Part shown: positions 2,339 to 64,000 of the stretch, in pieces | How the letters are laid out: each line of letters opens with the position of its first letter | Numbering within the stretch: position 1 is the first letter of the stretch | From: a virus | Taxonomy: Duplodnaviria > Caudoviricetes | DNA: 64,000 bases | Strand: one strand, 5' to 3' | Virus record (IMG/VR): IMGVR_UViG_3300021387_000147 | Made by a program: the position numbers and the translations under genes | The notes under the pieces: model-generated | Database searches by the model: none | What the model saw: the letters and a program-made list of their open reading frames with translations, nothing else | What the model was told of the DNA's origin: nothing

Positions 2339-3340
2339 TTATGCTATTTCAAAGAATCCTAATGGAGATTCCAATCTTATCTGTTCTCTACAATCATCCC
2401 ATTCTTCTTTATAAGATGAATACAAAGAATCAGCATTCAAAGAACCACCGCCTGCAATTGATAAAGTATACTTACGCAATGCATTAGTCCATATCATACC
2501 TGCTCTTGCAACTACCATACGTCTAAAGATTACATCATTAAATAACTTACTTGACTTCTGTCTCTTGTATACTTCCATCAATCCTCTTACAGGATGGTCA
2601 GGTTGAGGCCATACAGATAATTCCTTTTCTTTCTCATTATATCTTACGGTATATGATTCACCGAAATCCATCTTAGCCTGTTCCAACCATACAAGTGCAG
2701 CATTCCAATGACCTAGAACATCACCAAATCCACCAGCATTACTATAACAAGAACCTGTAAAGGAACTACCCATACTCATTACTGTGTTATACAAAGCATT
2801 GTGTGGTAGAGTAAACAAATCATTGATTGTTCCCATCCAATCTGAAACTTGGAAATCTACAATAGACTCTAATTCATCACAGATTTTATAGTGTGATTTT
2901 CCTGGTACTAAGTCCATAACAAGATAATCTCTATAATTACCTTCTCTGAAATAATACTTCCACATGTATTTAACTGTATCAGCAATAATGAAATTCAATT
3001 GCTGATCTGAAATTTCAATACAAATTACTGGAGCACCTAACATCATCTTAATGTAGTTTCTCATTTGAGCTACATTCTGAATGTTCATCGCATCCATAAA
3101 CTCATCCCTAACAGGAGGTTTAAATGGAGGATGTGGAGGTGCAGGTGGATGAGGTGGAATTATATCAGGTTTTGGTCCTGTTCCTGGCCATGGTCCATCT
3201 GCTGGAGGGAATGGTCCTCTTATTTCATTTCCTGGAAGCATACCATCCATTGGAGGATGCATTGGAAACATTCCACCTGGAGGTGGAGGAGGTTTTGGAA
3301 ATGGTCCTTTCTTAGTAATTTCTTGTGTTATATTAGCCAT
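2339..3340 (-). CDS. Neck/head-tail adaptor protein (T4 gp13-like) with Pro-rich N-terminal extension
   Basis: YIKMMLGAPVICIEISDQQL and WTNALRKYTLSIAGGGSLNADSLY match gp13-family motifs. Confidence 0.85.
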   Translation of the reverse strand: MANITQEITKKGPFPKPPPPPGGMFPMHPPMDGMLPGNEIRGPFPPADGPWPGTGPKPDIIPPHPPAPPHPPFKPPVRDEFMDAMNIQNVAQMRNYIKMMLGAPVICIEISDQQLNFIIADTVKYMWKYYFREGNYRDYLVMDLVPGKSHYKICDELESIVDFQVSDWMGTINDLFTLPHNALYNTVMSMGSSFTGSCYSNAGGFGDVLGHWNAALVWLEQAKMDFGESYTVRYNEKEKELSVWPQPDHPVRGLMEVYKRQKSSKLFNDVIFRRMVVARAGMIWTNALRKYTLSIAGGGSLNADSLYSSYKEEWDDCREQIRLESPLGFFEIA

Positions 3341-3361: not shown

Positions 3362-3386
3362 AAAAAAGATGGTATTAACCATCTTT
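3362..3386 (-). terminator. Terminator closing the early gene block
   Basis: AAAGATGGT-atta-ACCATCTTT hairpin with T-run. Confidence 0.6.
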
Positions 3387-3741
3387 ATTTCTTTTTCTTA
3401 GGAGCTCTCTTCCTTTCTGTTGTAATTTTCTTTTGCAACTTCTCATTAGCCTCTTCCATACTCATTGTTTCTAAGGCTGATTTCTGTATAATTGCTTTAG
3501 GCTTATTCTTCTCAATATATTCTTTATCCTCATCATATTCTTGTGGAGTTTCAAATTTTCTCCAATAAGATACTCTGTAGATATTACCAATCTGTTGAGA
3601 CATTGCTAAGAAATTCTTTTTACATTTCTCCTTAAATGCTTGTGCTTCCTTTTCTGTAGCAAACTCTCTATAAGTCGTATCCTCACGAGGGAATGCTAAC
3701 CACTTTGGAGCATATTTGCTCACATATTCTTTATTTGCCAT
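3385..3741 (-). CDS. Hypothetical basic protein
   Basis: 118 aa ORF coupled (TAATG) to upstream gene. Confidence 0.7.
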   Translation of the reverse strand: MANKEYVSKYAPKWLAFPREDTTYREFATEKEAQAFKEKCKKNFLAMSQQIGNIYRVSYWRKFETPQEYDEDKEYIEKNKPKAIIQKSALETMSMEEANEKLQKKITTERKRAPKKKK

Positions 3742-4094
3742 TAGAACTTCTCCTTACAAATGTTTTGAATTTGTCTTCTTTTAATTTCAGCTTTCAATTT
3801 ACGAATATAATCAACTATTGATTGTAAACGATTTACAAGCTTCTTAGGTTTTTTGTAATAATTATATCTATCGTCCATCAAAATAAAATACTTCATAACT
3901 CCTTCAGCATTTCTTTTTTGAGCCATTTTAGGATGATATACCTTACATTCACCATTCGTTTGACATGAAGCAATTAACTTATGACGTGCATTATCATTGT
4001 CAACATAAATTCCAATAGTCTCATCCCATGGAGCTATAGAAAAAGTAGTAAAACCAAACTTTTCTGCTATTTGTTTAAATTCCACTTGAGTCAT
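3741..4094 (-). CDS. C-terminal-motif array protein, soluble class
   Basis: Start moved to MTQVEF (GGAG upstream); ends KRRQIQNICKEKF. Confidence 0.75.
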   Translation of the reverse strand: MTQVEFKQIAEKFGFTTFSIAPWDETIGIYVDNDNARHKLIASCQTNGECKVYHPKMAQKRNAEGVMKYFILMDDRYNYYKKPKKLVNRLQSIVDYIRKLKAEIKRRQIQNICKEKF

Positions 4095-4563
4095 GTATAT
4101 GCTCCTGTAAAGCAATATTCTTTATTTGTGCTTTCTTATAATATCTTGTTCTCTTCTTATATAAATCTTCCAAATGGTCGACCATACTTTTAAAGTTATG
4201 ATATTGTCTTAATTTCAAATTCTTATAGAAAACATCATATCTCCACAGTTTATGTTTCTTATACCAATGATAAAATTCTTTATATGTTTTACAATATTTT
4301 TTATAAATAAGTATTTTAAAATCATCATCCTCTCTTATGTAGATATATGGAACACTATCAAAAGTTAGAGCAGTCTCAAAAAAATTAGAACTGATCATAT
4401 CATCAACATGTGCTAAAGGACATAATTCTTCTAGCTTTAATTTAATTAGATATAAATCATGTTCATTAAAACTTGTTTCTTCTTTAATTCTATAATCACA
4501 TTCAAGTCTTATAGCCCAAATAAAAACAAATACAGCAATAGGTAAAACAGCTATTATAAACAT
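4075..4563 (-). CDS. C-terminal-motif array protein, N-terminal TM class
   Basis: Hydrophobic N-terminus; KKAQIKNIALQE near end. Confidence 0.75.
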   Translation of the reverse strand: MFIIAVLPIAVFVFIWAIRLECDYRIKEETSFNEHDLYLIKLKLEELCPLAHVDDMISSNFFETALTFDSVPYIYIREDDDFKILIYKKYCKTYKEFYHWYKKHKLWRYDVFYKNLKLRQYHNFKSMVDHLEDLYKKRTRYYKKAQIKNIALQEHIHDSSGI

Positions 4564-4898
4564 TATTCATCTTGTCCTATTGATTTAATTAATCTTAATT
4601 TATATTGTTTCTTCCAAAATAATGTGTCTTTTTCAACTCTTTTCAAATGATTTTTAAGTGCTTCTTTTGAAGCCAATGTTCTTCCATTACCTCTTGTACA
4701 AATGGCGCCCATACAATCTAAACGAATATCATAGCATCCACCTCTTTTAGTTTCAGCATCAAGCCATGCAATCAAATTATCTGCAGCTCTTTCATTATTC
4801 AAATAGATAGCTACATAATTTGAATATTCACCATCTGTATCATAACCAAATTCTTTAGCTACTTCTATGAATTCTTCTTTAGTCAATTGTTTCGCCAT
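4563..4898 (-). CDS. C-terminal-motif array protein, soluble class
   Basis: EEFIEVAKEFGY start; ends KLRLIKSIGQDE. Confidence 0.75.
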   Translation of the reverse strand: MAKQLTKEEFIEVAKEFGYDTDGEYSNYVAIYLNNERAADNLIAWLDAETKRGGCYDIRLDCMGAICTRGNGRTLASKEALKNHLKRVEKDTLFWKKQYKLRLIKSIGQDE

Positions 4899-5214
4899 CT
4901 GCAATACTCTTAATTTGATTTAATTTTATAATACGTTTATAAATGTGTATTCTTTCTGTGACTTCATCAAGCCAATCAATAAATTCTTTTTGTGTCTTAA
5001 CTACTTTTGAATTTTGTTCTGTCTCTATAAGATTGATAGCTCTATAAAATATTGGGTTATGTAATTCTACACCATAAGAACAACATATCGCTAAACACAT
5101 TTCATTTGTATAAATGTTATCAATGTGTATACGATAATCTCCCATTGATTCTAATAAAGGATTTAATTCAAATCCATATTGTTTAGCTATATTTTTAAAA
5201 TCTGAGGCTTTCAT
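4879..5214 (-). CDS. C-terminal-motif array protein, soluble class
   Basis: DFKNIAKQYGF start; ends KLNQIKSIADGETID. Confidence 0.75.
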   Translation of the reverse strand: MKASDFKNIAKQYGFELNPLLESMGDYRIHIDNIYTNEMCLAICCSYGVELHNPIFYRAINLIETEQNSKVVKTQKEFIDWLDEVTERIHIYKRIIKLNQIKSIADGETID

Positions 5215-5687
5215 ACATCTTCCTTACATATATTCTTAATAGCTTCAAGTTTCTTTAACTTATTAAGTTTAGTTTCAAATGTAGGAACTTGTTTAATAAA
5301 TTCTTCTAATGTTCGAATACGTGCAAATTCTTTTTGCTTCCATAGTGGATATTCATCAACCTTAACAATAAAGAAATACTTATCTTTAGATTTATGATAT
5401 TTTAACCATTCTTTATATGTTTTAAAATTGTTCTTGTATAACATACAAAAGAAACGAGTATCATTTAGTCCATAACCATGATTTAATCTAGAAATTGTAA
5501 AATAATCTTTGCCTTTACAACTTACTTCTAAACCACATCTACGAATAGACCTATCAATCATTGCAACAATCTTTGTACCTTCTTCATCACTAACAGTAAT
5601 TGGCATTGACATTAAACGTAAGCGTCCTAAAAGATAACTTACATAAAAAATTGCCATAATACCAAATATAATTGCTAAAGGTTCCAT
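5211..5687 (-). CDS. C-terminal-motif array protein, N-terminal TM class
   Basis: TM helix at N-terminus; ends KLEAIKNICKEDV. Confidence 0.75.
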   Translation of the reverse strand: MEPLAIIFGIMAIFYVSYLLGRLRLMSMPITVSDEEGTKIVAMIDRSIRRCGLEVSCKGKDYFTISRLNHGYGLNDTRFFCMLYKNNFKTYKEWLKYHKSKDKYFFIVKVDEYPLWKQKEFARIRTLEEFIKQVPTFETKLNKLKKLEAIKNICKEDV

Positions 5688-6172
5688 TAGTCTTCCTCTT
5701 TACAAATACTTTGAATTTTCATTAATTTTTCTTTTCTAACTGCAAGCTTCATTTGATTTGGTATATCATTAAACATTTGATAAAAATCATCATACTTAGC
5801 AACAGGATTCAAATATTGAAATGCTCTTGCTTCAAATACATACGATAAACTAAATCTCAAATCTGGCATTTTTCTTTTCTTTAAGAAATCAAAAAAACTT
5901 GTATAAGTCAATCTATCAAAAGTATAATATAATTTATCTTCAATATAAAACGCATCTTTATATATTGCAAAGTTCATTTCATATCCATATTTAGTTTCTA
6001 CTTTCTTTTTAATTGTATCAAAAAGAAATTTCCTTGTTTGTTGGTCAAAATATGGTAGCTCATCCTTAATAAGATTATAATGAATTACTTGGTATATCAT
6101 CCAAAGAACGCATAACGTTAATGCGGTCATCAAAATAAAAGCTACACCTATACCAATAATCGGAACTAACAT
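5687..6172 (-). CDS. C-terminal-motif array protein, N-terminal TM class
   Basis: TM helix; ends KLMKIQSICKEED. Confidence 0.75.
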   Translation of the reverse strand: MLVPIIGIGVAFILMTALTLCVLWMIYQVIHYNLIKDELPYFDQQTRKFLFDTIKKKVETKYGYEMNFAIYKDAFYIEDKLYYTFDRLTYTSFFDFLKKRKMPDLRFSLSYVFEARAFQYLNPVAKYDDFYQMFNDIPNQMKLAVRKEKLMKIQSICKEED

Positions 6173-6639
6173 ATATCCTTTTCTTTACAAATACTTTCAA
6201 TCAATAATTTCTTATAAATTTTCTTTCTATCTCTAATAAGTCTTGGAAATTCTTTTTCAAGCTTAAGAATATCAGTGTACACTTCAAATAATGTTTCATC
6301 AGGATATGGACCAGATATGTATTCATTATACGGCATATAAAAAACTGAATAGTAAATATTGGATTTATGCTTAAGAAAATGATCTTTAAAAGAGTAAGGG
6401 TTTTTCTTAAGATAAATAGCCATCTCACCAATTTCTACTTCCTTATAAGACCATCTACTATAGAATGGACCATATTTAACCATATTATACTTTTGATACA
6501 GTCCATGCATGTGCAAATAAAACCAATGCCATTCCTTTTCTGTAATATGATTTTTATCATCTTTATAATACTTCCAAACCATACACAGTACACCGCATAT
6601 AGCAAGAAAATATAATGGTGCAAGCATAACATTAATCAT
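6166..6639 (-). CDS. C-terminal-motif array protein, N-terminal TM class
   Basis: TM helix; ends KKLLIESICKEKDIC. Confidence 0.75.
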   Translation of the reverse strand: MINVMLAPLYFLAICGVLCMVWKYYKDDKNHITEKEWHWFYLHMHGLYQKYNMVKYGPFYSRWSYKEVEIGEMAIYLKKNPYSFKDHFLKHKSNIYYSVFYMPYNEYISGPYPDETLFEVYTDILKLEKEFPRLIRDRKKIYKKLLIESICKEKDIC

Positions 6640-6985
6640 CTTTACAAATACTCTCTATTTGAAATTTCTTAATATCTTTCTTAATAAATTTTACCAATCT
6701 TAAATACAATTCTAAATTCTTTTCAAATTCAGATTCATCTTCAGAATCAAAATACGTTGAAGAGCAACCAGTATCAATTGCTCCATTTGTATAAATTTCA
6801 ATAGCATTCTTTAATTTAATCTGATTACAATTAGTGTTTAATTGCGTAATAACTCTATGATGATCTTCAGGTAAAGAAAAACAAATAAAATGTTTTCCAC
6901 CAATAATCTGTTTACCAACTTCCTCTTCAGTCAGTTGTTCCAAACCATGTTTCTTACAGATCTCAATAAATTTTTCTTCACTCAT
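6632..6985 (-). CDS. C-terminal-motif array protein, soluble class
   Basis: EEKFIEICKKHGL start; ends KKFQIESICKDD. Confidence 0.75.
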   Translation of the reverse strand: MSEEKFIEICKKHGLEQLTEEEVGKQIIGGKHFICFSLPEDHHRVITQLNTNCNQIKLKNAIEIYTNGAIDTGCSSTYFDSEDESEFEKNLELYLRLVKFIKKDIKKFQIESICKDD

Positions 6986-7410
6986 ACTGGATCCTTACAA
7001 ATGTTTCTAATACGACGGAGCTTTTCAGTTATATTAAAAAGCTTAACTTCCTTTGTAATGCTTAACAATTCATCTTTCAAAATTGCAGGGTCAGTAACAG
7101 TAATTCCATTTATTGCAGTTGACAAATAACATTGACCATCGTAATTAACAATTTTTATTTTGTTATAGAGAACACATTCGAATAAAGCATTTCTTAAATG
7201 CTTTTTATTATAATCAATAGTGAAGACAATTACAATATTTGCTTCAGATGCAGTAGTATATGTCGGTGTATTTAAAGAAACTACATACTTTTTGCTTAAA
7301 CTTTTAGTAGTGTCACATTTATCAAAAAGATCTGGCTCATAACCACATTCATGACAAATGTTCAAAAACTTTTCTTCATTTAATGTATCTTCTTTAACGT
7401 GAGAAAACAT
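6982..7410 (-). CDS. C-terminal-motif array protein, soluble class
   Basis: EEKFLNICHECGY; ends KLRRIRNICKDPV. Confidence 0.75.
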   Translation of the reverse strand: MFSHVKEDTLNEEKFLNICHECGYEPDLFDKCDTTKSLSKKYVVSLNTPTYTTASEANIVIVFTIDYNKKHLRNALFECVLYNKIKIVNYDGQCYLSTAINGITVTDPAILKDELLSITKEVKLFNITEKLRRIRNICKDPV

Positions 7411-7411
7411 A

Positions 7412-8131
7412 TTATTCCTTACAAATGTGTTTAATTTCGTAGAGCTTTCTTAAGCGAGCAAACTTCTGTTGTAATTCATTATTCTTTTGAATTTGCTTTT
7501 CAATTTCTTCGTATGCCTTCTTAAATCCATCTACATTCAAACAGTTATCAGTAAACTTAACTGGATATTCTGCGATATATTCCTTTGTTGTAGGAAATGC
7601 TATTTGATATGCATATTTTTCATTACCTTCATAGAAATAAAGAATACGCAATTTCTGCAAAGTCAGTGTCAATGTATGCACAACTTTGTTTGTATACTTT
7701 CTTGTCACTGCATCTTTAACAGTTTCAATCGCAGACGTATACTTGATAAATGGATGCTGTGCTTGATGAGCCCAAGGTTCATTACAATAATGATAAATGA
7801 AAGATGTGCCATCACAATTATGATTGAAAAAACTATTGCGCCATAAATCTTCAAGCGTATACTTTTCAAGATAATCATCATCTTTAAGTGCATCCATCAT
7901 GTTAATAGTATATTTCTTTTGAATACCCATAAATGCACCATTTGACCAATTAGCACAGATCTTATTTTCACTTGGATGTGCAGTAGAACGTGCCAACTCA
8001 GTTCGCACATAAATCTTCAAACATTCAATCATCGCTTGTTTCAATGCATCAGTCATATTCTTTCTATCCTCAATATCTTGCACAACCTTATTAAACTGTT
8101 CAGATACTGACTTCATAAGCAATTCTGTCAT
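7412..8131 (-). CDS. C-terminal-motif array protein
   Basis: 239 aa; ends KLYEIKHICKE. Confidence 0.75.
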   Translation of the reverse strand: MTELLMKSVSEQFNKVVQDIEDRKNMTDALKQAMIECLKIYVRTELARSTAHPSENKICANWSNGAFMGIQKKYTINMMDALKDDDYLEKYTLEDLWRNSFFNHNCDGTSFIYHYCNEPWAHQAQHPFIKYTSAIETVKDAVTRKYTNKVVHTLTLTLQKLRILYFYEGNEKYAYQIAFPTTKEYIAEYPVKFTDNCLNVDGFKKAYEEIEKQIQKNNELQQKFARLRKLYEIKHICKE

Positions 8132-8685
8132 TAATCTTCATCCTTTCCAATAGAATGGATGGCGGCATATTTTGCATTTCGAACAGAAGCCTTAATCATT
8201 GCTTCATTCTTTTCCTGCGTATCTCGAATTAAATCAACTGCCAACTTCCAATCTTCAAAATCTACTTTCTTAGAAAAATCAAAATCATATCTTTCACGAT
8301 AACCACCACATGCAAGCTGAACAGGAAGTTTCTTTTCATCTACATACTGATAAATGAAATTGGGAACCATCATTGTCAAAGAAATTTGCCATGGATGCCA
8401 ATTCTGTCCACTTGCTCTCCAAACACTGCAAGTAATATCCTTATAAGTATACAAATTCCAATAAGTATTATCAGCAATTTCTAAATAATAGGCTTTGCGG
8501 ATTTTTTCGAACTTTTTAATAGGGTCGAAAATCACGTGATAGTCATGATGAAAATCACCATTCAAAATCAGCTTTTCTTCAGACGCTTCATAACGGTCGA
8601 TAATATACAACTGTTTGGAATGCTCCTTAGACAAATACTGGAGCATATCCACGATTTTCATTTGAGCATCCCATTCGTTATACAT
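8131..8685 (-). CDS. C-terminal-motif array protein
   Basis: 184 aa; ends KYAAIHSIGKDED. Confidence 0.75.
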   Translation of the reverse strand: MYNEWDAQMKIVDMLQYLSKEHSKQLYIIDRYEASEEKLILNGDFHHDYHVIFDPIKKFEKIRKAYYLEIADNTYWNLYTYKDITCSVWRASGQNWHPWQISLTMMVPNFIYQYVDEKKLPVQLACGGYRERYDFDFSKKVDFEDWKLAVDLIRDTQEKNEAMIKASVRNAKYAAIHSIGKDED

Positions 8686-8855
8686 TATTCAACTTCTCTT
8701 CCGTCAATTTCAGTGTCAGCCAAGAAAGAACCAAACTTCTTGATAATCTTCTGACGATTTTCCTCGGCCTTAGCCTTGTCATGATACACGCCCCAAATCA
8801 TACGGCGTTCGGGCTTGTCCATAGTGTTATAAGTCAAAACATATACCTTTTCCAT
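8685..8855 (-). CDS. Small hypothetical early protein (56 aa)
   Basis: Below ORF-track cutoff; MEKVYVLTYNTMDKPERR..., GAGGT RBS, TAATG coupling to next gene. Confidence 0.65.
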   Translation of the reverse strand: MEKVYVLTYNTMDKPERRMIWGVYHDKAKAEENRQKIIKKFGSFLADTEIDGREVE

Positions 8856-8869
8856 AATTTACCTCTTAA

Positions 8870-9055
8870 TTATTCAGCAGGCCAAATTGCTTCAATGTGA
8901 TTAATTCCTACGACAATGGTCGTTCCACTAATTCGCAAATCTTTACAATTAACGAATTTTACGAAATGTTCATCCATGGCTTCAATAGTACCGGTAAAAC
9001 GAGCACCCATGTTAAACTTGCCATGCAACCAGTATCTTTTTCCAATTTCAAGCAT
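8870..9055 (-). CDS. Small hypothetical early protein, possible Sm/SH3-like beta fold
   Basis: First gene after early promoter, GAGGT RBS; FTGTIEAMDEHFVKF...IVVGINHIEAIW. Confidence 0.65.
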   Translation of the reverse strand: MLEIGKRYWLHGKFNMGARFTGTIEAMDEHFVKFVNCKDLRISGTTIVVGINHIEAIWPAE

Positions 9056-9082
9056 CTTAACCTCTTTTATTTTAACAAGTAA

Positions 9083-9169
9083 AATATACTAAAAAAGAGG
9101 TTTCTTGGAAACCCCTTTTAATGTAAAATAAAGTTTACAGAACTATAAAATATGTAAATTATAGTTTAC
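9083..9169 (-). promoter_or_regulatory. Sigma70-type early promoter with two upstream GTAAA-N6-TTTAC palindromes
   Basis: Minus strand TTTCCA-17-TATATT; palindromes 9123-9138 and 9154-9169. Confidence 0.7.
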
Positions 9170-18564: not shown

Positions 18565-20493
18565 TTATTGATGTCCGCTAACTACAAAAAATAATGAACC
18601 TTTACCATCACATGCACCGCCATTAACTAAGTTAGTTATTTCAGTATCACCATTAACTACAAATAATTGTTGTGCATTCCAACCAGTATGACCTTCTTTA
18701 TAATTTACAGCTGATATTGCAGAACTATTATTACCATCTGTATACTTTATCAAATTTGTATTTGCATTTATTTCTAATTGTGATTTATTTACAAAATTCT
18801 GTTGATTAACCCAAGATTCTGCTTGATTCAAAGCATTAGCACTAGCATCATTAGCGTAGGTCTTAGTAGCATATTCAGCAGGAACAGCAGTTAGGTAATG
18901 TTTGTTTTCAACCCATGTCTCAGCTTCACTTAAAGCATTAGCACTTGCTGCTTCAACATCAGTTTTTAAAGCATAAGTATTAGGAATAGAAGTTAAATAA
19001 CCTTGTTGTCCTACCCATGTCTGAGCTTGACTTAATGCAGCCGCACTAGCTTCATTTGCATATGTTTTTGTTGCATAGTCAGTTAAATCTGTATTCTTTA
19101 AAAATCCTTGTTCTCCAACCCAATCATGTGTAGCAATTACTTCAGTATTAACACCATAAGGTGAATTTTGAGTACCTTCACCACTAATTGTATTTGGTGT
19201 ATCAAAAACATAACTTGCACCAGTTCCATCAATACCATTTCTTACATCAAATGTTAATGGATGTTCTGCATCATGTGTAGCATCAGTAATTATTACTGTT
19301 GTTCCACCTGGAGTTCCAGGAATTGCTGAATATGAAATAGATGGAGAAACACCATTTGAACCAGGTTCACCTGATACACCACTCATAACATCAATTGATT
19401 CTGTAGAAGGAGTTCCACCATCATCATAAGTAAATGTGACTCTATTACCGCCAGGAATTGCAGATGTTGAAACAGTTGGTGAAATACCATCTTTACCATT
19501 ATCACCATCTAATACAGTAAATGAATCTGTATGTGTTGCATCTGTAATTGATACTGTATGTTGACCTGTGACTGTGTCATCAATTGTTATAATTGGTGAG
19601 AAACCACTTGCACCAGTATCACCTTTAGTGCCGGCATCACCCTTATCACCTTTATCACCTTTTTCACCAGATACACCTTGAGGACCTATTGGGCCTTGTG
19701 GACCAGTTGGACCTTGTGGACCAGTTGGACCTTGTGGACCTCTAGGACCTTCAGGACCTACAGAACCTGCAATACTACTAATATAGATATTATTTAATTT
19801 ATATCTACCTTGTGCTGATTCACCCTTAACTAAGAATTTTAAAGTAGTAGGTACTTCTTTTAAATTAATAATACCAGTTATCCATTCTGACTGCACATCT
19901 ATTTTCTGTGGATTACTTGTAGTATCTTTAATTAAACTATCATCAAATAAAATAAATGTTTGATATAAAGCATCATCAATACTTGTGCTTTTTGAAATAG
20001 CAATATCTAATTTGTTATTGATACTACTCTGTGTAGGTTCATATAATACTTCAATTTTAACATCATAGATACCAGCTGGAATAGTAAGACTCTCAGATAA
20101 TGCGCCAGCTTCATGATTAAAATCAGCTGCAGTTTCTGTATATGTAGCTAATACAGAATCATACTCATTCTGTTTAAATAATGACCATAAAGAATCATCA
20201 CTTGTACTAGATGATTCTATTGGCTGATATGTAACATTAAGACTACCATCAGCATTTTGTTCAATAGTTTGAATAGTCTGGTTTGGTTCACATGACCATG
20301 CAGATGGAGTAATTTCTGGAGTAAAATGTTCCATTGCGGCAGAAACACTTTCAATTGCTTCTGCCAATGTTTTATCATTTTCATTAAATTTCTGTACTGT
20401 ATTTGAATTTAGCCAATTACCATCAGCTACAGTATTTCTACTCCATTGTTTACCAGCATTACTTACAATTTTTCCTACTAAACTTTCAGCCAT
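18565..20493 (-). CDS. Collagen-like tail fibre protein
   Basis: Gly-X-Y run ([12 protein letters not shown]...GDKGDK), three G-x-SP repeats and three ~35-aa YA.KT...AS..AL..A..WV repeats. Confidence 0.85.
19611..19770 (-). repeat. Collagen-coding tandem repeats
   Basis: 18-bp unit ccttgtggaccagttgga twice in tandem and 9-bp GDK units. Confidence 0.8.
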
Positions 20494-20540
20494 TATATTA
20501 CCTCTTATTCTTATTTATAATAAGAAAATGGACAGAAGAT

Positions 20541-21137
20541 TTACTTCTGCCCATAGATTTTACTTAATGGAAATTCATAATTCATCAAAGTTAAATGATA
20601 TTTTATGTCTTCACATTTTACTTTGTCTTGTTTAAGTATATCATTTAAATATCGGTCATCTTCAACTAAATCAATCATCTCTTTCGGTGTCAATTCAAAG
20701 ATATTAGTTTCTTTAAAGTATGTAGGATGATATATTGCTGCAAATCCATGAATCCAATTACCACAAATTCCAGGATTTATTATTTTACCAAAGTTATTTT
20801 CTGCATCATTTACGATTGTTTCTATATAGGTATTATCGTAAACAACGTCATCATCTATTGTTAATATCCAACAATCTTCATCTTTATGTCTTGATAAAAC
20901 AGGTATAAGTTTTTTAAAGGCTTTTGTATTTTCTTTTACCCATATTATCTCAAAGTTTAAAATAGTTTCTAATTCCTTAAGAGATTCTGGTATTTCCTTA
21001 TTTGGAAATTCATCAGTTGATAAAGTTAAATAAATTTTATCTGGTTGTAAAGTTTGTTCTGTTAGATAAAATAAAGTATCACAAACGTGGTGTATTCTTT
21101 TACTCCATGATGTAAAACTTACATATATCTTTCTCAT
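20541..21137 (-). CDS. Glycosyltransferase (GT-A fold)
   Basis: VSFTSWSKRI...QPDKIYLTL...KKLIP...ILTIDDDVVY. Confidence 0.8.
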   Translation of the reverse strand: MRKIYVSFTSWSKRIHHVCDTLFYLTEQTLQPDKIYLTLSTDEFPNKEIPESLKELETILNFEIIWVKENTKAFKKLIPVLSRHKDEDCWILTIDDDVVYDNTYIETIVNDAENNFGKIINPGICGNWIHGFAAIYHPTYFKETNIFELTPKEMIDLVEDDRYLNDILKQDKVKCEDIKYHLTLMNYEFPLSKIYGQK

Positions 21138-21877
21138 AGTTTCTTTGTATACTTTAAATTATGTTCAGGTTTTACTTGCTCATAAGTTGTTGGTGTTATA
21201 TGGTCAGGTGTTAACATTCCCATCTTTCTTTCCATTTCTTTTTTAGATTTTCTCCAATAATGAACGAGTTTAATATCATCATTAGATGGATCTCTTACCT
21301 TAAATGGTTCTTCTGGATTTACCATCAAACCATCTACTGTATTTACCGCACAACTCCAAGTCATAAACGTATGAGGATTCCATTTAAATCCACCTACTTG
21401 TCCTTTTCTTACAAAAGACTTATAGTGAGTTAAGTATTCTCCTTCTGGAGTATATCTAAATGATTGTGACATTGATTGAGTTCTATCTTCTATTTCACAA
21501 CCATCTTTATATGAAGCAAATTGCCAATATACACCAAATACTTTCACATCATTATCTAAAGATGATAAGAATTCATTTATATTCTTCCATTTAGATTTGT
21601 TGATGCGTAAGTATTCGTCATCATCACAAAAGAATATCCAATCATATTCTGTATTTCTTGAATAATGATTGTCATATATCTGTAATTGATTTGGAAATCC
21701 TTTTACTAGATACATAGATACATTCTTATAATTCTCATCTGTCATTTCATATACAGGTTCATAATCATTTAAATACAAAGTAATATGATCGAAACCTAAT
21801 TTTTGATAATGATGAATTAAATCAAGAGTATCTTCTTGACGATATGCTTTTGTTAAAATGACGACTTCACTTTTCAT
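21134..21877 (-). CDS. Glycosyltransferase (GT2/GT92-like)
   Basis: HHYQKLGFDHITLYLN...YDWIFFCDDDEYL...KSFVR...LVHYWRKS. Confidence 0.8.
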   Translation of the reverse strand: MKSEVVILTKAYRQEDTLDLIHHYQKLGFDHITLYLNDYEPVYEMTDENYKNVSMYLVKGFPNQLQIYDNHYSRNTEYDWIFFCDDDEYLRINKSKWKNINEFLSSLDNDVKVFGVYWQFASYKDGCEIEDRTQSMSQSFRYTPEGEYLTHYKSFVRKGQVGGFKWNPHTFMTWSCAVNTVDGLMVNPEEPFKVRDPSNDDIKLVHYWRKSKKEMERKMGMLTPDHITPTTYEQVKPEHNLKYTKKL

Positions 21878-22623
21878 TAGGCCAATTTCTTCAATACTTC
21901 TTCACTCGTAAATAGTTGTTGCTTAACGTTCTCAAATTCTGCATCTTTCTGAAGACCTAATCTAATAAATCCTTGATGACCATGTTCCATGTACCAAGAA
22001 CTACCTTCCTTATGCCAATATGGGAAACGTTCACCTATATCTCCTACAGAACCACGATAACCAATTACATCTTCATACATTGTAGAACCTACATCGTAAT
22101 AAATGAATCGAGGATCGCGAACACTTGCTAACTGCTTAAAGTCATAGAATGACATTGAGTTAGTCATTTGGACACGTTTAAAATCTGTAAATGGGATATT
22201 ATGCTTCTTCAAAAATTCTACATTCATGAAACAATACCAAGGATGAACTCTCTTATGAAGACGATAACCACCACGGTCACCACAAATATCTCCAAATAAA
22301 TCATATCCCTTATTCTTTACATGTTGCAAAATTTCATGTGGATCTGCCAAACAAATACAGTCACTATCCAATAATAAAGCATACTTTGTCTTTACTTCTT
22401 GTAGTGCCTTATTTACTGTATCTGCATGACCACCACCTGGATTGTCAATAAACTTAATTCCATACTTATTCAATAAGTTTCTATTTTCTGAATAATAAGC
22501 TGGAGAATTTTCATAAATCAACAATTCATCTTTAGTAACTCCAAACTGTGCAAGTTGATGCAAGCATAGAGTCAATTCTTTTGTTGCTTTATAAGCACAA
22601 ATTATAATTGTTAAATCTGACAT
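21877..22623 (-). CDS. Glycosyltransferase (GT2-like)
   Basis: LTIIICAYK...LLIYENS...KTKYALLLDSDC. Confidence 0.8.
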   Translation of the reverse strand: MSDLTIIICAYKATKELTLCLHQLAQFGVTKDELLIYENSPAYYSENRNLLNKYGIKFIDNPGGGHADTVNKALQEVKTKYALLLDSDCICLADPHEILQHVKNKGYDLFGDICGDRGGYRLHKRVHPWYCFMNVEFLKKHNIPFTDFKRVQMTNSMSFYDFKQLASVRDPRFIYYDVGSTMYEDVIGYRGSVGDIGERFPYWHKEGSSWYMEHGHQGFIRLGLQKDAEFENVKQQLFTSEEVLKKLA

Positions 22624-22630
22624 TTATACC

Positions 22631-23173
22631 TTACTTCAATTCAACTTCGTAATCGCCAATCTTAAAATCAACAACTACATTCAACTTTTGTGTATCTGTC
22701 ATACTCAAACACAAATCATTCAATTTATCAATTGTGCAATTCTTGAAATGATAAATCATTGTTGACTTCTTACCACCAGTTAGAGTAACATCAAAATCAA
22801 AAGAAATTTTATAATCTTCCTTATTCTGTTTCCATAGAGTCTTATGGAAGAAGTAATACAAATCATATTCTTCACACTTAAAAATCATCTCAAGTGTCTT
22901 TGTATTAAGATCCTTAAAGATTAAATCTTCTTTTTCATTAGCTTCTTCTGTTTTCCATGCTGTTTCTGTTAGAAGACGTTTACTTAGAGGTTTCTTTGCA
23001 ACCTGGAATTTATCGACAAAAATTGTAGAAATATGCTTCTCCATATTTTCTTCAACATTTCCAGGAACAACATTAGAAACCTTAACGTTTAACTTAAACT
23101 GATTTACTGTTGGATATACTGGCTGTTCTTTCTTACCAGTTTCAAATACACTATTATCTACTTCTTGTATCAT
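22631..23173 (-). CDS. Tail-tube-fold (gp19-like) paralogue
   Basis: C-terminal YHFKNC...L..L....D.....VDFK..DYE pattern parallels 35116 and 44095 proteins. Confidence 0.5.
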   Translation of the reverse strand: MIQEVDNSVFETGKKEQPVYPTVNQFKLNVKVSNVVPGNVEENMEKHISTIFVDKFQVAKKPLSKRLLTETAWKTEEANEKEDLIFKDLNTKTLEMIFKCEEYDLYYFFHKTLWKQNKEDYKISFDFDVTLTGGKKSTMIYHFKNCTIDKLNDLCLSMTDTQKLNVVVDFKIGDYEVELK

Positions 23174-23243
23174 ATTTCACCTCACTAATCTTAAATATAA
23201 AAAATATTGCAATTTTGTTATTGCAATATTATATATTTTCATT

Positions 23244-23372
23244 CTAATTTTTCTTTTCTTTTTTGTCAGGCTTTTTGTCGAGCTTTTCTATAATCTCCAT
23301 AAGAATCTCCTGTGTCTTAGCGAGATTAACTTCATCTGACTTCTTTTTCTTTTTATTTTCATTCTTATCCAT
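23244..23372 (-). CDS. Small Lys-rich hypothetical protein (42 aa)
   Basis: Below cutoff; GGAGG RBS, MDKNENKKKKKSDEVNL... Confidence 0.45.
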   Translation of the reverse strand: MDKNENKKKKKSDEVNLAKTQEILMEIIEKLDKKPDKKEKKN

Positions 23373-23401
23373 AAACACCCTCCAAAAAAACCTATACAAA
23401 A

Positions 23402-24488: not shown

Positions 24489-24491
24489 AAA

Positions 24492-30190: not shown

Positions 30191-31703
30191 TATAGTTTAT
30201 TTAGAAAAAGTAAATGAAACAGTAGTTAAAGTAGATTGTAATGACGAAGTAGCACATAATTTATATTGTCGTTATTCTGCTTATTCTCCTGGTTATATTT
30301 TCAATCCTAGATATAAGATGCACGTCTGGGATGGTATGATACACATGTATACTCCAAGAAGTAGTACCATTCCTATGGGTCTTTTACCTGACGTTATTCG
30401 TTATTTTGATAAAGAAGGTATTGAATATAAATTATCTAATTTCACCAATATGATTGATGAAAATATAGATGATTGGTTTGAACAACAAATGAAAGCAAAT
30501 ATGGTTAATGCACCATATCCTTTACGTGATTATCAGAAAGAAGCTATTTACGCAGCATTAAAGAATAAGAAAGGTATTCTACTTTCTTGTACTTCTTCTG
30601 GTAAATCCTTAATGATTTTCAATATCATTGTGACTTTATTGACACAAAAGAAATTAAAGAAGACTATGATTGTTGTTCCTAACAAAACCCTAGTTGAACA
30701 GTTGTATAAAGATTTTATTGACTATGGATGGAAGAACATTGATATTTGTGTCACAAAATTATATGATGAAGAAAAGAAGAATGTAGATTTTAGAAAGCCA
30801 GTATTGATTACAACTTGGCAATCAATCTATAAGAAAGAAAAATCTTTCTTTGAAGATTATCAAGCAGTAATATGTGATGAAGCTCACCAGAGTAAAGCAC
30901 AAGCATTATCTACAATCTTAAAATCATGTACAAATGCAAGTTATAAGATTGGTACTACTGGTACTTTATCTACAGAAGCATCAGATAATTTGACTATTCA
31001 GAGTATTTTAGGAGATATTCTATTTGAACTTAGAAGTAAGGATTTGATTGAAAAAGGTTATTTAACAAAGATTACTATTGCAAATATCTTAGTCAAATAT
31101 CCTATGGAGTTTATTAAGACTCATAAGAATTTGCAATATCCTGAAGAAGTTAGATATGTAGAAGAATATCCTGAACGTAATAAAGCGCTAGATTTAATCC
31201 TGGACCATACTCCAGAGACTCATAATATCTTATTGCTAGTAAACCATCGTGATCATGAAAAAAGCCTCCAGGAATACCTGAAAGCGAAATATCCTAATAA
31301 GAAAGTAAGTATTATTGATGGCTCTGTAAAAGCAAAAGAAAGAGAAAGTATTAGAACTGGAATTGAAAATGAAGATGGAACTATTTTGTTAGCAACTTTT
31401 GGAACTATGTCTACTGGTGTTAACATTCCTAAACTTCATGCAGTTGTATTATATTCTAATTCTAAGAGTAAGATTAAGGTTTTACAGAGTATTGGACGTG
31501 GATTGAGAAAGCATAATACAAAGTCTCATGTTATCTTATATGATATTATTGATGATTTGTCTTATTTTACACCAAGAGGTAAACATAAGAAGAATTACTT
31601 ATATCAGCATTGGGAAGAAAGAACAAAGTATTATGTTGAACAAGAATTCCCACAAATTACAACTAATTTAAAGTTGGAGTATCATCCTGAGGATCAGGAA
31701 TAA
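30183..31703 (+). CDS. uvsW: UvsW-like SF2 DNA helicase
   Basis: WDG.IH, LRDYQ, TSSGKS, DEAH, GTTGT, QSIGRGLR. Confidence 0.93.
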   Translation: MSDIVYLEKVNETVVKVDCNDEVAHNLYCRYSAYSPGYIFNPRYKMHVWDGMIHMYTPRSSTIPMGLLPDVIRYFDKEGIEYKLSNFTNMIDENIDDWFEQQMKANMVNAPYPLRDYQKEAIYAALKNKKGILLSCTSSGKSLMIFNIIVTLLTQKKLKKTMIVVPNKTLVEQLYKDFIDYGWKNIDICVTKLYDEEKKNVDFRKPVLITTWQSIYKKEKSFFEDYQAVICDEAHQSKAQALSTILKSCTNASYKIGTTGTLSTEASDNLTIQSILGDILFELRSKDLIEKGYLTKITIANILVKYPMEFIKTHKNLQYPEEVRYVEEYPERNKALDLILDHTPETHNILLLVNHRDHEKSLQEYLKAKYPNKKVSIIDGSVKAKERESIRTGIENEDGTILLATFGTMSTGVNIPKLHAVVLYSNSKSKIKVLQSIGRGLRKHNTKSHVILYDIIDDLSYFTPRGKHKKNYLYQHWEERTKYYVEQEFPQITTNLKLEYHPEDQE

Positions 31704-32025
31704 ACTCTTGATCTGCTATATGTTTGATAGCTTCTAATTTGTGATATTTTTTATTTCTATGATATATTTTAGTTATATCATAGATTTTTTTTGTAAATTT
31801 TTCTTTGTCCCAATTGAATGTATCAATATTGGGTTTATTTGATAATAAATCTACGTAGATAAAGCGGACTACTATATTATCTTTATTTTCACAGATGAAA
31901 CCAAATGTATCATCTTTTTCATATCCAAAATAAAAATAATTGTCACCAAATGGATATACATTTATACCCAATGTTTTTATATAATCAATTACTTCTTGAC
32001 TTGCATTAGAGAAAAAGACGTCCAT
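31663..32025 (-). CDS. Solitary C-terminal-motif protein
   Basis: KYHKLEAIKHIADQE near end; late box 4 nt upstream of ATG. Confidence 0.65.
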   Translation of the reverse strand: MDVFFSNASQEVIDYIKTLGINVYPFGDNYFYFGYEKDDTFGFICENKDNIVVRFIYVDLLSNKPNIDTFNWDKEKFTKKIYDITKIYHRNKKYHKLEAIKHIADQEFIPDPQDDTPTLN

Positions 32026-63142: not shown

Positions 63143-63625
63143 CTATTCCTCATTATTCTTAATATAATTCTTATCGTATACTATCTTTTCATTAAGACCT
63201 ATACATTGAATTTCACTATATTTAGCTATCTTTTTCGTTATAGCTTTTACTTCTTCTTTCTTACTTCTATACAATTCTAGTAATTTCTTTCTTTCTTCAA
63301 ATAATTCAATCACTTTATCTTCATTACATTCAATTCTTCCATCATTACTAAAATGTACTACAGGTCTCTTTATCCAATCTATTATATCCTCTACATCAAT
63401 ATGAAATTCAAAATAATAAAATAACCATCTATTCCATTCATGATTATATTTTATTTGAGTAATTACAGTACATCCATCCAATATAGCATAACTAATTTCT
63501 CTTCCATATCCAGTACTTATAGAAAATTCATATCCATTCTTTTTACAATAATTATTTAAAATCTTTTCTACATTATGCGTATAATACTCATATCCGTGGA
63601 ATTTTTTTCCATATTCATATTTCAT
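63143..63625 (-). CDS. Hypothetical protein with C-terminal-motif variant
   Basis: Start MKYEYG (AGGAG); YCKKNGY near N-terminus, KYSEIQCIG near C-terminus. Confidence 0.65.
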   Translation of the reverse strand: MKYEYGKKFHGYEYYTHNVEKILNNYCKKNGYEFSISTGYGREISYAILDGCTVITQIKYNHEWNRWLFYYFEFHIDVEDIIDWIKRPVVHFSNDGRIECNEDKVIELFEERKKLLELYRSKKEEVKAITKKIAKYSEIQCIGLNEKIVYDKNYIKNNEE

Positions 63626-63641
63626 ATTTTCTCCTAGGGAC

Positions 63642-64000
63642 AAAAAATTTCCCCCGAAAATTTTTTCAAAGGCAACTTTTCAAAAAACTAATTTCATTCC
63701 AGGATTCTGGCCTGTGTCAAAATTTTCCCGGAAAAATTTTTTAGGGCGCATACAGACGCAGACAAAAATCGCCTCATATAGCCCAGGGGCCAGTAGCAGG
63801 CCCCGGAATGGATAGAAAATGCTCCTATACTATAATTTTGAACAATCAAAATTATTACTTTGCACAGGGCCGTCAGGCAGGGGGCCCCTGGGACGTCCTG
63901 GGAGGGGGCCCCTGGTAGGCCGGCAGGTTGTCATTATAGTTGACAATATGCGCTTATATTGTCATTGAAAATGTCATTATATAGTGTCAATAAAAATGTC
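63642..64000. other. GC-richer non-coding repeat region (origin/terminus candidate)
   Basis: A/T-arm hairpins, AGGGGGCCCCTGG at 63879 and 63903, TGTCA repeats. Confidence 0.5.

What the first reader, a model, noticed from the sequence alone, without database searches (positions are those of the whole stretch)
3741..8685. Eleven consecutive divergent genes share one C-terminal peptide tag
Seen: every gene from 8685 to 3741 has K-x-x-x-I-x-[SNH]-I-[CAG] at or near its end after a basic amphipathic helix: KRRQIQNICKE, KKAQIKNIALQE, KLRLIKSIGQDE, KLNQIKSIADGE, KLEAIKNICKED, KLMKIQSICKEE, KKLLIESICKEK, KKFQIESICKDD, KLRRIRNICKDP, KLYEIKHICKE, KYAAIHSIGKDE. Bodies share little else. They are stop/start-coupled behind an early promoter. 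Caveat: the K-[ED] codons (AAG GA) often double as the next gene's Shine-Dalgarno, but this cannot explain the K...I..I core. Inference: a plug-in docking system in which variable effector domains are recruited to one hub (host or phage complex, protease adaptor, or each other through the helix).
Basis: partly seen in the sequence, partly recalled or inferred. Interest (0 to 1): 0.82.

Follow-up and report, generated by a model that had tools for sequence, protein, structure and literature searches.

The report
Phage gene array sharing one tail
An uncultured giant T4-like phage from the sheep or cattle gut carries 11 back-to-back (13 in all) fast-evolving small genes whose proteins all end in the same strictly kept stretch of helix, most likely a common contact surface, but no partner has been found.

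Summary
All 11 genes from 8685 to 3741 (minus strand) end in K-x3-I-x-[SNH]-I-[CAG]. A 12th copy lies at 31663-32025 and a diverged 13th at 63143-63643. Shuffles give 0.58 such ends; 13 are seen.

Conservation is at protein level. Codon identity in the motif equals the codon-usage expectation (0.518 vs 0.519). Against three relatives, dN/dS is 0.15 in the motif and 0.45 in the bodies, with equal dS. K and both I are invariant in 236-237 of 237 metagenomic relatives.

The motif is not a loose tag on unrelated domains. It is the last three turns of a roughly 30-residue C-terminal helix, in register in all 12 clear copies. Six members are soluble and clearly related. Four are membrane-anchored and related. 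Models of one of each show the same helix, sheet, long-helix sandwich. Two larger members stand alone.

No Pfam, PHROG or PDB relative exists, and a tail profile against 1.84 billion proteins finds only this phage lineage. Relatives lose, truncate and frameshift members.

Best reading (about 0.4): a shared interaction handle. Near-equal rival: a structural helix closure.

This scan noted similar shared tails before on other DNA (other rumen T4-like jumbo phages; T4 e.3-e.5).

The parts
9083..9111 (-). Sigma-70-like promoter candidate (TTTCCA-17-TATATT) at the head of the operon. A GGTTTC/GAAACC stem-loop overlaps its -35 hexamer, and GTAAA-N6-TTTAC palindromes lie upstream.
   Evidence: The same hexamers recur at 11003..10975. 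RNA-library contigs from three sheep-gut studies end at 9065-9086, which is only a weak hint.
8870..9055 (-). First operon gene, 61 aa, no tail motif.
   Evidence: no family found.
8685..8855 (-). Second operon gene, 56 aa, no tail motif. It is kept in relatives even where the array decays.
   Evidence: (PHROG 3002, E 4e-5).
8131..8685 (-). g01, 184 aa, larger singleton body; tail KYAAIHSIG-KDED.
   Evidence: 45.5 bits.
7412..8131 (-). g02, 239 aa, larger singleton body; tail KLYEIKHIC-KE.
   Evidence: 55.0 bits.
6982..7410 (-). g03, 142 aa, soluble class; tail KLRRIRNIC-KDPV.
6632..6985 (-). g04, 117 aa, soluble class; tail KKFQIESIC-KDD.
6166..6639 (-). g05, 157 aa, membrane-anchored class (N-terminal hydrophobic helix); tail KKLLIESIC-KEKDIC.
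5687..6172 (-). g06, 161 aa, membrane-anchored class; tail KLMKIQSIC-KEED.
5211..5687 (-). g07, 158 aa, membrane-anchored class; tail KLEAIKNIC-KEDV. Model: TM helix 3-27, helix 34-49, five strands plus an inserted helix at 91-99, and a C-terminal helix at 127-157.
   Evidence: 114 ortholog clusters; pLDDT 74.5.
4879..5214 (-). g08, 111 aa, soluble class; tail KLNQIKSIA-DGETID. The end overlaps the start of g09.
4563..4898 (-). g09, 111 aa from the ATG at 4898, soluble class; tail KLRLIKSIG-QDE. Model: helix 7-16, four strands, and a C-terminal helix at 78-110.
   Evidence: 80 ortholog clusters; pLDDT 92, pTM 0.83.
4075..4563 (-). g10, 162 aa, membrane-anchored class; tail KKAQIKNIA followed by 11 residues that overlap the start of g11.
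3741..4094 (-). g11, 117 aa from the ATG at 4094, soluble class; tail KRRQIQNIC-KEKF.
3385..3741 (-). Last operon gene, 118 aa, no tail motif, basic C-terminus. Retained in most relatives.
   Evidence: dN/dS 0.24.
3365..3386 (-). Intrinsic-terminator-like hairpin (9-bp stem plus a T run) closing the operon, just before the gp13-like neck gene.
31663..32025 (-). g12, 120 aa, a lone soluble-class copy two genes downstream of the major capsid gene; tail KLEAIKHIA followed by 16 residues. TATAAATA lies 4 nt before its ATG. No gene follows on the same strand.
   Evidence: (62.0 bits).
63143..63643 (-). Probable diverged 13th member, 166 aa: a long basic helix, then KYSEIQCIG 17 residues before the stop. 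Its tail closely resembles that of g01.
   Evidence: The match to the tail profile is weak (E 4.2).

Best explanation
Shown:
- This is a lineage-specific, fast-evolving multigene family of small accessory proteins in a giant T4-like gut or rumen phage.
- Eleven members are translationally coupled in one operon.
- The two members I modelled, one soluble and one membrane-anchored, are built as an N-terminal helix, a four- to five-strand sheet and a C-terminal helix of 30-33 residues.
- The shared motif is the last three turns of that C-terminal helix.
- The motif is under purifying selection at protein level about as strong as that on a virion protein, while the bodies diversify and individual members are lost in nature.

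Inferred mechanism:
- The helix end projects past the compact sandwich. It presents K0, I4, I7 and a small residue at +8 on a face turned away from the sheet-packing stripe.
- This face serves as a common handle by which every member, free in the cytoplasm or tethered to the inner face of the membrane, contacts one and the same partner (host or phage).
- The variable body gives each member its own specificity. Early host take-over, exclusion or counter-defence roles are the most likely setting.
For: Protein-level selection:
- Identical residues in the motif use the same codon in 0.518 of pairs, against 0.519 expected from codon usage.
- Against three relatives, dN/dS is 0.146 in the motif, 0.275 in the preceding helix, 0.451 in the bodies and 0.077 in gp13. 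dS is 0.29 in the motif and 0.32 in the bodies.
- The motif is the least variable segment among 108 g07 and 69 g09 orthologs.
- K0 is kept in 237/237, I4 in 237/237 and I7 in 236/237 family proteins from metagenomes.
- g12 keeps the motif with no downstream gene on its strand.

More than core packing:
- The other hydrophobic helix positions (-19, -15, -12, -8, -5, -1) keep only their hydrophobic class. The stripe then shifts to +1, +4, +7/+8, about 100-160 degrees around the helix.
- The best structural neighbours align only up to residues 93-95 of g09 (K0 = 100) and 142-148 of g07 (K0 = 146).
- The N-terminal helix, the obvious intramolecular partner, is not conserved between the classes.

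One architecture:
- AF2 models of g09 (pLDDT 92) and g07 (pLDDT 74.5) show the same order of elements.
- The two models share 14 of their top 50 PDB neighbours.
- An Atlas shape search finds three viral clusters at TM 0.74-0.76.

Accessory, fast turnover:
- Relatives show frameshifts, truncations and deletions of members.

Novel family:
- No Pfam, PHROG or PADLOC family matches.
- The tail profile against 1.84 billion representatives gives 22 hits, all from this lineage.
Against: - No partner is known.
- The motif is part of a continuous helix with no linker and no indels, unlike a classical docking peptide.
- AF2 places the helix end confidently in a monomer (pLDDT 82-94), so it may simply pack on the N-terminal helix. 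I could not inspect coordinates.
- The tail was not found on any trustworthy foreign fold.
- A 411-kb relative has its own large families ending in hydrophobic-x-x-L-[G/P/D]. That looks like a generic helix closure, and a founder effect could explain it.
- Homology between the soluble and membrane classes is not detectable by sequence. 'One family' therefore rests on two models, one of them only moderately confident.
- g01 and g02 were not modelled.
Confidence: 0.4

Rival explanations
1. Structural closure. The family is an ordinary runaway paralog expansion. The conserved helix end is needed only to finish and stabilise the fold, either by clasping the N-terminal helix or as a C-cap with a hydrophobic staple. 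It has no transferable activity and is simply the slowest-evolving part inherited from one founder gene.
For: - The helix is continuous and in register, without a linker.
- In the soluble class, the N-terminal helix and the tail are the two most conserved segments.
- The 411-kb relative has about 35 small proteins ending in hydrophobic-x-x-L-[G/P/D](G). This includes a probable homologue of g12, about 0.6 kb from the position I infer for the capsid gene; its own tail is ENILSVLD.
- The monomer model is confident at the tail.
Against: - Strict identity of K, I and I in 236-237 of 237 proteins contrasts with class-only conservation at the sheet-packing positions.
- An invariant lysine is not expected for packing.
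- The hydrophobic face is rotated away from the sheet stripe.
- Structural neighbours' cores end before the motif.
- The N-terminal helix varies between classes.
Confidence: 0.35
2. Mutual assembly. The tails bind each other, so that co-expressed members form homo- or hetero-oligomers, for example soluble members recruited to membrane-anchored ones.
For: - The genes are translationally coupled in one operon.
- Soluble and anchored members are interleaved.
- The helix end is amphipathic and its hydrophobic positions have heptad-like spacing.
- Several weak structural neighbours are dimerisation modules: Med17C, capping protein and type III secretion chaperones.
Against: - There is no positive evidence.
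- g12 is expressed apart from the array, behind a late-type promoter box.
- Relatives keep single members after losing their neighbours.
Confidence: 0.12
3. Turnover or timing signal. The helix end is recognised by a protease or chaperone, so that all members are degraded or handled together.
For: Indirect only: all members share the helix end, and most lie in one operon behind a sigma-70-like (early-type) promoter candidate.
Against: - The distance from the motif to the free C-terminus varies from 2 to 17 residues and the final residues are not conserved. A C-terminal-carboxylate degron is therefore unlikely.
- The motif is helical, not disordered.
Confidence: 0.08
4. Nucleic-acid-level element. 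The repeat is kept for translational coupling, for a promoter, or by gene conversion.
For: The K-[DE] codons after the motif do overlap the next gene's AAGGA ribosome-binding site.
Against: - Synonymous sites in the motif are fully randomised among paralogs (0.518 vs 0.519).
- Those sites evolve as fast as in the bodies among orthologs (dS 0.29 vs 0.32).
- Ser is encoded by TCT, TCA and AGT.
- g12 has no downstream gene.
Confidence: 0.02

Closest known systems
Bacteriophage T4 early genes e.3, e.4 and e.5 (NC_000866, 67957-69270), uncharacterised
   Same: They are adjacent, overlapping small early genes of a T4-type phage. Their otherwise dissimilar products share a near-C-terminal motif: KEFVIDCRK, MKFVKESRCK and KFVKECRE, read directly from the T4 record. 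Their function is also unknown.
   Different: There is no sequence relation (tail profile 3.6 bits or less). T4 has three members, against 11-13 here. The motif differs, and no soluble/anchored class structure has been shown for the T4 genes.
Hyperplastic regions and PeSL (promoter-early stem-loop) cassettes of T4-type phages (PMC2839356, PMC4122927)
   Same: Both are blocks of variable, mostly ORFan early genes set between conserved core genes. A promoter-plus-stem-loop motif sits at the head, and genes are gained and lost between close relatives.
   Different: In the published cases each cassette carries its own PeSL, and the ORFs are unrelated. Here 14 genes run stop-to-start behind a single such motif, and 11 of them are paralogs with a common helix end.
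Small alpha/beta sandwich modules in the PDB: Med17 C-terminal domain (5n9j_W, 4h62_Q, 7emf_Q), TriTu immunity protein (7zhm_D), RWD/UBC-like domains, type III secretion chaperones, MotA C-terminal domain
   Same: All have an N-terminal helix, an antiparallel sheet and a C-terminal helix on one face. The same entries are the best neighbours for both the soluble and the anchored model. Z is 5.4-7.1, with rmsd 3.1-4.3 Å over 80-90 residues.
   Different: Z is below the level that distinguishes kinship from a common arrangement. There is no sequence similarity. These domains lack the 12-16-residue helix extension that carries the motif.
Viral multigene families with a variable body and a constant C-terminal docking module, such as poxvirus ankyrin/PRANC proteins, and adaptors with a short C-terminal docking peptide, such as SspB (from general knowledge; analogy only)
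   Same: The logic proposed here is the same: many diversified bodies and one constant C-terminal element that engages a single machine.
   Different: There is no homology. In those systems the docking element is a separate domain or a flexible peptide with a known receptor. Here it is the end of a fold-integral helix, and no receptor is known.
Tail-sharing small-protein families of a 411-kb rumen relative (IMGVR_UViG_3300023371_000061)
   Same: It is a related jumbo T4-like phage (gp13 69% identical). It has a 15-gene tandem array and about 20 dispersed small proteins that share a C-terminal helix end. One of them is a probable g12 homologue about 0.6 kb from where I infer the capsid gene.
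   Different: The consensus is different (hydrophobic-x-x-L-[G/P/D]). Its main array has an unrelated, mostly beta body (hhalign probability below 1%). It gives no match to this family's tail profile.

Membership tests
Single paralogous family with one fold | Detectable sequence similarity of the bodies once the tails are removed | tested here: inconclusive
   Similarity is found within classes: g09-g11 E 1e-5, g08-g11 4e-4, g07-g10 1e-4 and g03-g04 6e-3, and the alignments agree. None is found between the soluble and anchored classes (hhalign probability below 1%). g01 and g02 have no partner.
Single paralogous family with one fold | Same predicted architecture in different classes | tested here: met
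   g09 has helix 7-16, four strands and helix 78-110 (pLDDT 92). g07 has a TM helix, helix 34-49, five strands plus one inserted helix, and helix 127-157 (pLDDT 74.5). The two models share 14 of their top 50 PDB neighbours. g01 and g02 were not modelled.
Portable docking tag (short linear motif) on unrelated domains | The motif occurs on demonstrably unrelated folds | tested here: inconclusive
   Every trustworthy carrier belongs to this family. P0206 lies on a 1.4-kb scaffold and is a likely assembly chimera. P0212 (Bro-N plus the g08 tail) was seen on one contig only.
Portable docking tag (short linear motif) on unrelated domains | The motif is separated from the body by a flexible or variable linker | tested here: not met
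   The helix is continuous in both models. Hydrophobic positions from -19 to +8 are in register in all 12 paralogs without indels.
Portable docking tag (short linear motif) on unrelated domains | Protein-level purifying selection that is stronger than on the body and independent of DNA-level constraint | tested here: met
Portable docking tag (short linear motif) on unrelated domains | An identified reader or hub that binds the motif | not testable with these tools
   The host genome is not held and no candidate reader was found. The only lead to a host is one NCBI label, 'Succinivibrionaceae bacterium', on a binned contig.
PeSL-flanked ORFan cassettes of T4-type phages | A promoter-plus-stem-loop motif on each side of each cassette | tested here: not met
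   There is one such motif, at 9056-9165, at the operon head. Genes g01-g11 abut or overlap with no intergenic space.
RWD/UBC-like or Med17C-like alpha/beta sandwich | Structural match clearly above background | tested here: inconclusive
   The best Z is 5.9 for g09 and 7.1 for g07. Foldseek gives no hit at E 1e-3 or better in the PDB or BFVD.
Known Pfam / PHROG / PADLOC families | A profile match at or above the curated or a significant threshold | tested here: not met
   No family comes near its threshold for any member.

The most novel reading that the evidence does not exclude
The helix end is a genuine docking epitope read by one hub protein of the host or the phage. Under this reading, rumen jumbo T4-like phages run a plug-in system: dozens of rapidly diversifying soluble and membrane-tethered adaptor bodies are coupled to a single machine through a lineage-specific handle that co-evolves with its reader. 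This would explain why a probable g12 homologue carries K-L-E-A-I-K-H-I-A here but E-N-I-L-S-V-L-D in the 411-kb relative, matching each genome's own family consensus.
Probability: 0.3. Interest if true: 0.8.

Novelty: new variant of a known kind. Interest (0 to 1): 0.5.

Why it matters
Large uncultured gut and rumen phages devote much of their coding capacity to fast-evolving small early proteins of unknown function. Here one short helix end is as constrained as a virion protein, while everything around it changes or is lost. That makes it a precise, cheap experimental entry point: a handful of point mutants and one pull-down could reveal either a new hub of phage-host interaction or a minimal rule for closing a very plastic fold. 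The phage lineage is abundant in public sheep-gut and wastewater data, with more than 100 sequence clusters per member, so natural variation is already available for analysis.

Tried and rejected
Searches that found nothing useful:
- blastn of the array against INPHARED phages: no match. The capsid protein is only about 33% identical to any listed phage.
- Pfam, PHROGs and PADLOC on all members: nothing near threshold.
- PDB sequence profiles: nothing.
- Foldseek against the PDB and BFVD: no hit at E 1e-3 or better.
- Atlas feature search: nothing usable.
- Tail profile on the 411-kb and 291-kb relatives: no match.
- Body profiles and single sequences on the 411-kb relative: only two marginal hits. 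One (g10) falls on what looks like a non-coding-frame ORF.
- The profile search with the soluble-class alignment listed only orthologs of the input paralogs among its best 120 hits. The weaker 88 hits were not shown.
- Literature searches found the PeSL papers but nothing on this family.

Tests without a result:
- Complex prediction on two copies of g09: no verdict, score 0.00, controls not run. This is not evidence either way.
- hhalign of the soluble class against the LEVLG family of the relative aligned only the 17-column helix-G-Y motif.

Observations not counted as evidence:
- P0206 as proof of tail portability: rejected, because it sits on a 1.4-kb scaffold with a bacterial DUF3048_C body.
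- Contigs from RNA libraries cover the array. DNA carry-over cannot be excluded and contigs cannot show strand or level, so I do not count this as proof of transcription.

Ideas considered and set aside:
- Membrane-targeting amphipathic helix. The tail ends in acidic residues, has a narrow aliphatic face, and four members already have a TM helix.
- C-terminal-carboxylate degron. The distance from the motif to the end varies from 2 to 17 residues.
- T4-type clamp-binding tail and prohead-protease site. By my recollection of those motifs there is no resemblance; I did not test this.
- HicA-like fold suggested by the helix-G-Y start. There is no Pfam hit, and the model has four strands rather than three.

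Full report
**What the window is**

The window comes from a T4-type myovirus. It encodes:
- a gp23-type major head protein at 32563-33930(-), PHROG 138, E 1.5e-71;
- a portal at 36408-38021(-);
- a baseplate wedge protein and a gp2-like DNA end protector;
- a gp13-like neck protein at 2339-3340(-).

G+C is about 30%. The capsid protein is only about 33% identical to anything in INPHARED, and the array has no DNA match there.

The lineage is nevertheless common in public data. One member has 114 clusters at 90% identity and another has 80, drawn from ENA, Logan and JGI. Contigs of four sheep-gut RNA libraries cover the array at 90-99% identity. One binned contig is labelled Succinivibrionaceae at NCBI. 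Earlier notes of this scan describe the genome as a giant T4-like gut phage.

**The observation**

Eleven consecutive minus-strand genes (8685 to 3741) end in K-x3-I-x-[SNH]-I-[CAG], followed mostly by K-[DE]-[DE]. K, I and I are the only invariant columns, and the paralogs are only 14-23% identical to the first member.

A profile of the last 51 positions separates exactly 12 window ORFs (45-62 bits) from all others (9.7 bits or less). The 12th is at 31663-32025(-). Relaxing one position of the motif adds a probable 13th at 63143-63643(-), with a tail very like that of g01. Shuffling gives 0.58 near-end matches on average and never more than 3; 13 are observed.

Two gene starts should be moved, g09 to 4898 and g11 to 4094. 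This explains why g08 and g10 run on past the motif.

**Protein level or DNA level**

Among paralogs, residues that are identical in the motif use the same codon in 51.8% of pairs. Codon usage predicts 51.9%. Serine is written as TCT, TCA and AGT.

I compared the array with three related contigs, pooling all comparable genes:

| Region | dN/dS | dS |
|---|---|---|
| Motif | 0.146 | 0.29 |
| 20 helix residues before the motif | 0.275 | not reported here |
| Bodies | 0.451 | 0.32 |
| Neighbouring gp13 gene | 0.077 | 0.156 |

The motif is also the least variable stretch among 108 and 69 orthologs of two members. In 237 family proteins retrieved from metagenomes, K0 and I4 never vary and I7 varies once. 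g12 keeps the motif although no gene follows it on the same strand.

The 'DNA-level only' refutation is therefore excluded.

**What the proteins are**

No member matches Pfam, PHROGs, PADLOC or PDB sequences.

- **Soluble class.** Six members (g03, g04, g08, g09, g11, g12) align over their whole length and start with a helix followed by G-[YFLI].
- **Membrane-anchored class.** Four members (g05, g06, g07, g10) start with a hydrophobic helix followed by basic residues. By the positive-inside rule this places the rest of the protein in the cytoplasm (my inference). They share an internal helix motif.
- **Singletons.** g01 and g02 are larger and stand alone.

With tails removed, the soluble and anchored classes show no significant profile-profile similarity. 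The models, however, agree:
- g09 (pLDDT 92, pTM 0.83) has helix 7-16, four strands and a helix at 78-110.
- g07 (pLDDT 74.5) has a TM helix, helix 34-49, five strands with one inserted helix, and a helix at 127-157.

Both models pick the same weak PDB neighbours: Med17 C-terminal domain, capping protein alpha, type III secretion chaperones, MotA C-terminal domain and frataxin. Fourteen entries are shared between the two top-50 lists, with Z up to 5.9 and 7.1. A shape search of the ESM Atlas finds three viral 'hypothetical' clusters at TM 0.74-0.76.

I conclude that the modelled classes share one simple alpha/beta sandwich. It has no clear known relative, and I did not test g01 or g02.

**What the 'tag' is**

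The motif is not a flexible appendage. Anchoring all 12 sequences on K0 without gaps puts the hydrophobic positions -19, -15, -12, -8, -5 and -1 in register (58-100% hydrophobic at -19 to -5, 50% at -1). This is the sheet-packing stripe of the long helix. The stripe then jumps to +1, +4 and +7/+8, about 100-160 degrees around the helix.

The stripe positions keep only their hydrophobic class, whereas +4 and +7 are always isoleucine and position 0 is always lysine. The best structural neighbours superpose only up to residues 93-95 of g09 (K0 = 100) and 142-148 of g07 (K0 = 146). A helix of 33 residues (about 50 Å) cannot lie wholly on a four-strand sheet of 5-9-residue strands; this is a geometric inference of mine. 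I could not read the model coordinates, so whether I4 and I7 are exposed or pack on helix 1 remains open.

**Distribution and dynamics**

The tail profile, searched against 1.84 billion representative proteins, finds 22 hits at E 1e-3 or better. All are orthologs or fragments of the window's own 12 members.

Related contigs show rapid turnover:
- One relative (L035) has all 11 genes, but g04 and g08 are only 51-53% identical.
- Others have frameshifted tails (g03 and g11 in L036), split genes (g05 in L005), deletions (g04, g06, g08) or wholesale decay. In L008 only g01 and g07 stay intact and g09 survives N-terminally truncated; the remaining members are truncated or absent.

Two apparent 'new body plus old tail' proteins exist. 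One sits on a 1.4-kb scaffold with a bacterial domain and is probably an assembly artefact. The other, a Bro-N domain with the g08 tail, was seen on one 16.9-kb contig. I do not use either as evidence that the tail is portable.

**A more distant relative**

A 411-kb IMG/VR phage (gp13 69% identical) has no member of this family by the tail profile and none by body profiles apart from marginal hits. It does have its own tail-sharing families:
- a 15-gene tandem array at 18859-24765(-) with a mostly beta body, ending in A-[IL]-[DE]-x-L-P;
- about 20 further small proteins ending in L-E-V-L-G and similar.

One of its genes, at 277194-277478, aligns with g12 over 78-84 residues (phmmer E 4e-4 in that proteome; pairwise BLASTP E 2e-5). 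It lies about 0.6 kb from the position I infer for the capsid gene, next to the homologue of window ORF 33946-34935; the capsid homologue itself was not recovered there by BLAST. In the window, g12 lies two genes from the capsid gene. Its tail reads E-N-I-L-S-V-L-D, that genome's flavour, where g12 has K-L-E-A-I-K-H-I-A-D.

This fits two models equally well: a handle that co-evolves with a genome-specific reader, or expansions in each lineage seeded by a g12-like founder.

**Operon frame**

The only intergenic gap upstream, 9056-9165, holds a sigma-70-like site (TTTCCA-17-TATATT) overlapped by a stem-loop and preceded by GTAAA-N6-TTTAC palindromes. The same hexamers recur at 11003..10975. A strong terminator-like hairpin follows the last gene, at 3386..3365. 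RNA-library contigs from three studies end at 9065-9086, which is a weak hint of a start there.

The layout resembles the promoter-early stem-loop motifs that bound variable cassettes in T4-type phages (PMC2839356, PMC4122927). Here, though, a single motif heads 14 coupled genes.

**Explanations**

I rank a shared interaction handle first, at about 0.4. The identity-level invariance of K, I and I, the rotated face, the position beyond the neighbours' cores and the lack of a conserved intramolecular partner all exceed what core packing needs.

A structural closure is almost as likely, at about 0.35. The helix is continuous, there is no linker, the relative's families end in cap-like motifs, and a founder effect would explain the sharing.

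Mutual assembly (0.12) and a turnover signal (0.08) remain possible. A nucleic-acid element is effectively excluded (0.02). The one complex prediction I could run, a g09 homodimer, returned no verdict and counts for nothing.

**Comparison and novelty**

The nearest thing in a model phage is T4 e.3-e.5, three adjacent early genes with a shared near-C-terminal K-x-F-V-x-x-C-R motif. I read this from the T4 record. It is unrelated in sequence and equally unexplained.

Earlier notes of this scan report comparable shared tails in other rumen T4-like jumbo phages, and a second array with K-x-x-I-x-x-I(G) ends elsewhere in this same genome. I could not read that DNA.

The protein family is new to the databases I searched. 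The kind, a lineage-specific expansion of small early genes in a variable region of a T4-type phage, is known. The strictly conserved helix end spanning soluble and anchored classes is the new twist.

Noticed in passing
window 63143-63643 (-): A 166-aa protein with a long basic C-terminal helix ending KYSEIQCIG, 17 residues before the stop. The tail is very like that of g01 (NAKYAAIHSIG). It is a probable diverged 13th family member, near the window's end.
   Followed up: partly
window 9056-9165 and 10975-11078 (-): Both places carry identical promoter-like hexamers (TTTCCA-17-TATATT). Each is overlapped by a short GC stem-loop and preceded by GTAAA-N6-TTTAC palindromes, which is PeSL-like. 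RNA-library contigs of several strains diverge exactly at 9057-9060, as if this were a recombination boundary.
   Followed up: partly
window 11194-11619 (-), 59845-60117 (-), 60886-61329 (+); L025:10566-11132: Several otherwise different proteins start with M-N-L-x-E-A-K-x-x-L-x-x-H-G-Y. The soluble members of the array start with a similar helix-G-[YF] element (E-E-F-I-E-V-A-K-E-F-G-Y), and so do several small proteins of the 411-kb relative. This may be a widespread N-terminal module in this phage group.
   Followed up: partly
L011-L012 (IMGVR_UViG_3300023371_000061, 18859-24765, minus strand) and dispersed: The 411-kb relative has a 15-gene tandem array of proteins of about 95-115 aa (M-I-K-V-Y start, Y-I-E-I-N-x-x-x-F-x-Y-K-D-I centre) ending A-[IL]-[DE]-x-L-P(G). 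About 20 further small proteins end in L-E-V-L-G, D-V-L-P-G or L-E-V-L-D-G. This is an independent tail-sharing expansion.
   Followed up: partly
window 31663-32040 (-): g12 follows a strong terminator hairpin. TATAAATA lies only 4 nt before its ATG and there is no Shine-Dalgarno sequence, so the mRNA would be nearly leaderless, or the start or promoter assignment is wrong.
   Followed up: no
L034:1-879 (ERZ28657526 scaffold_1019): In one relative the upstream half of the array is replaced. A Bro-N domain is fused in frame to the last 28 or so residues of g08, and the 118-aa gene before gp13 is missing.
   Followed up: partly
L001:7253-10822: In the 411-kb and 291-kb relatives the gp13-like gene is inverted relative to the tail-fibre-like genes that flank it in the window, and no array lies next to it.
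   Followed up: no
window 3741-8685 vs 2339-3340: Synonymous divergence from the same relatives is about twice as high in the array (dS 0.32) as in the adjacent gp13 gene (0.156). This suggests recombination with more distant alleles, or weaker codon constraint, in the variable block.
   Followed up: no
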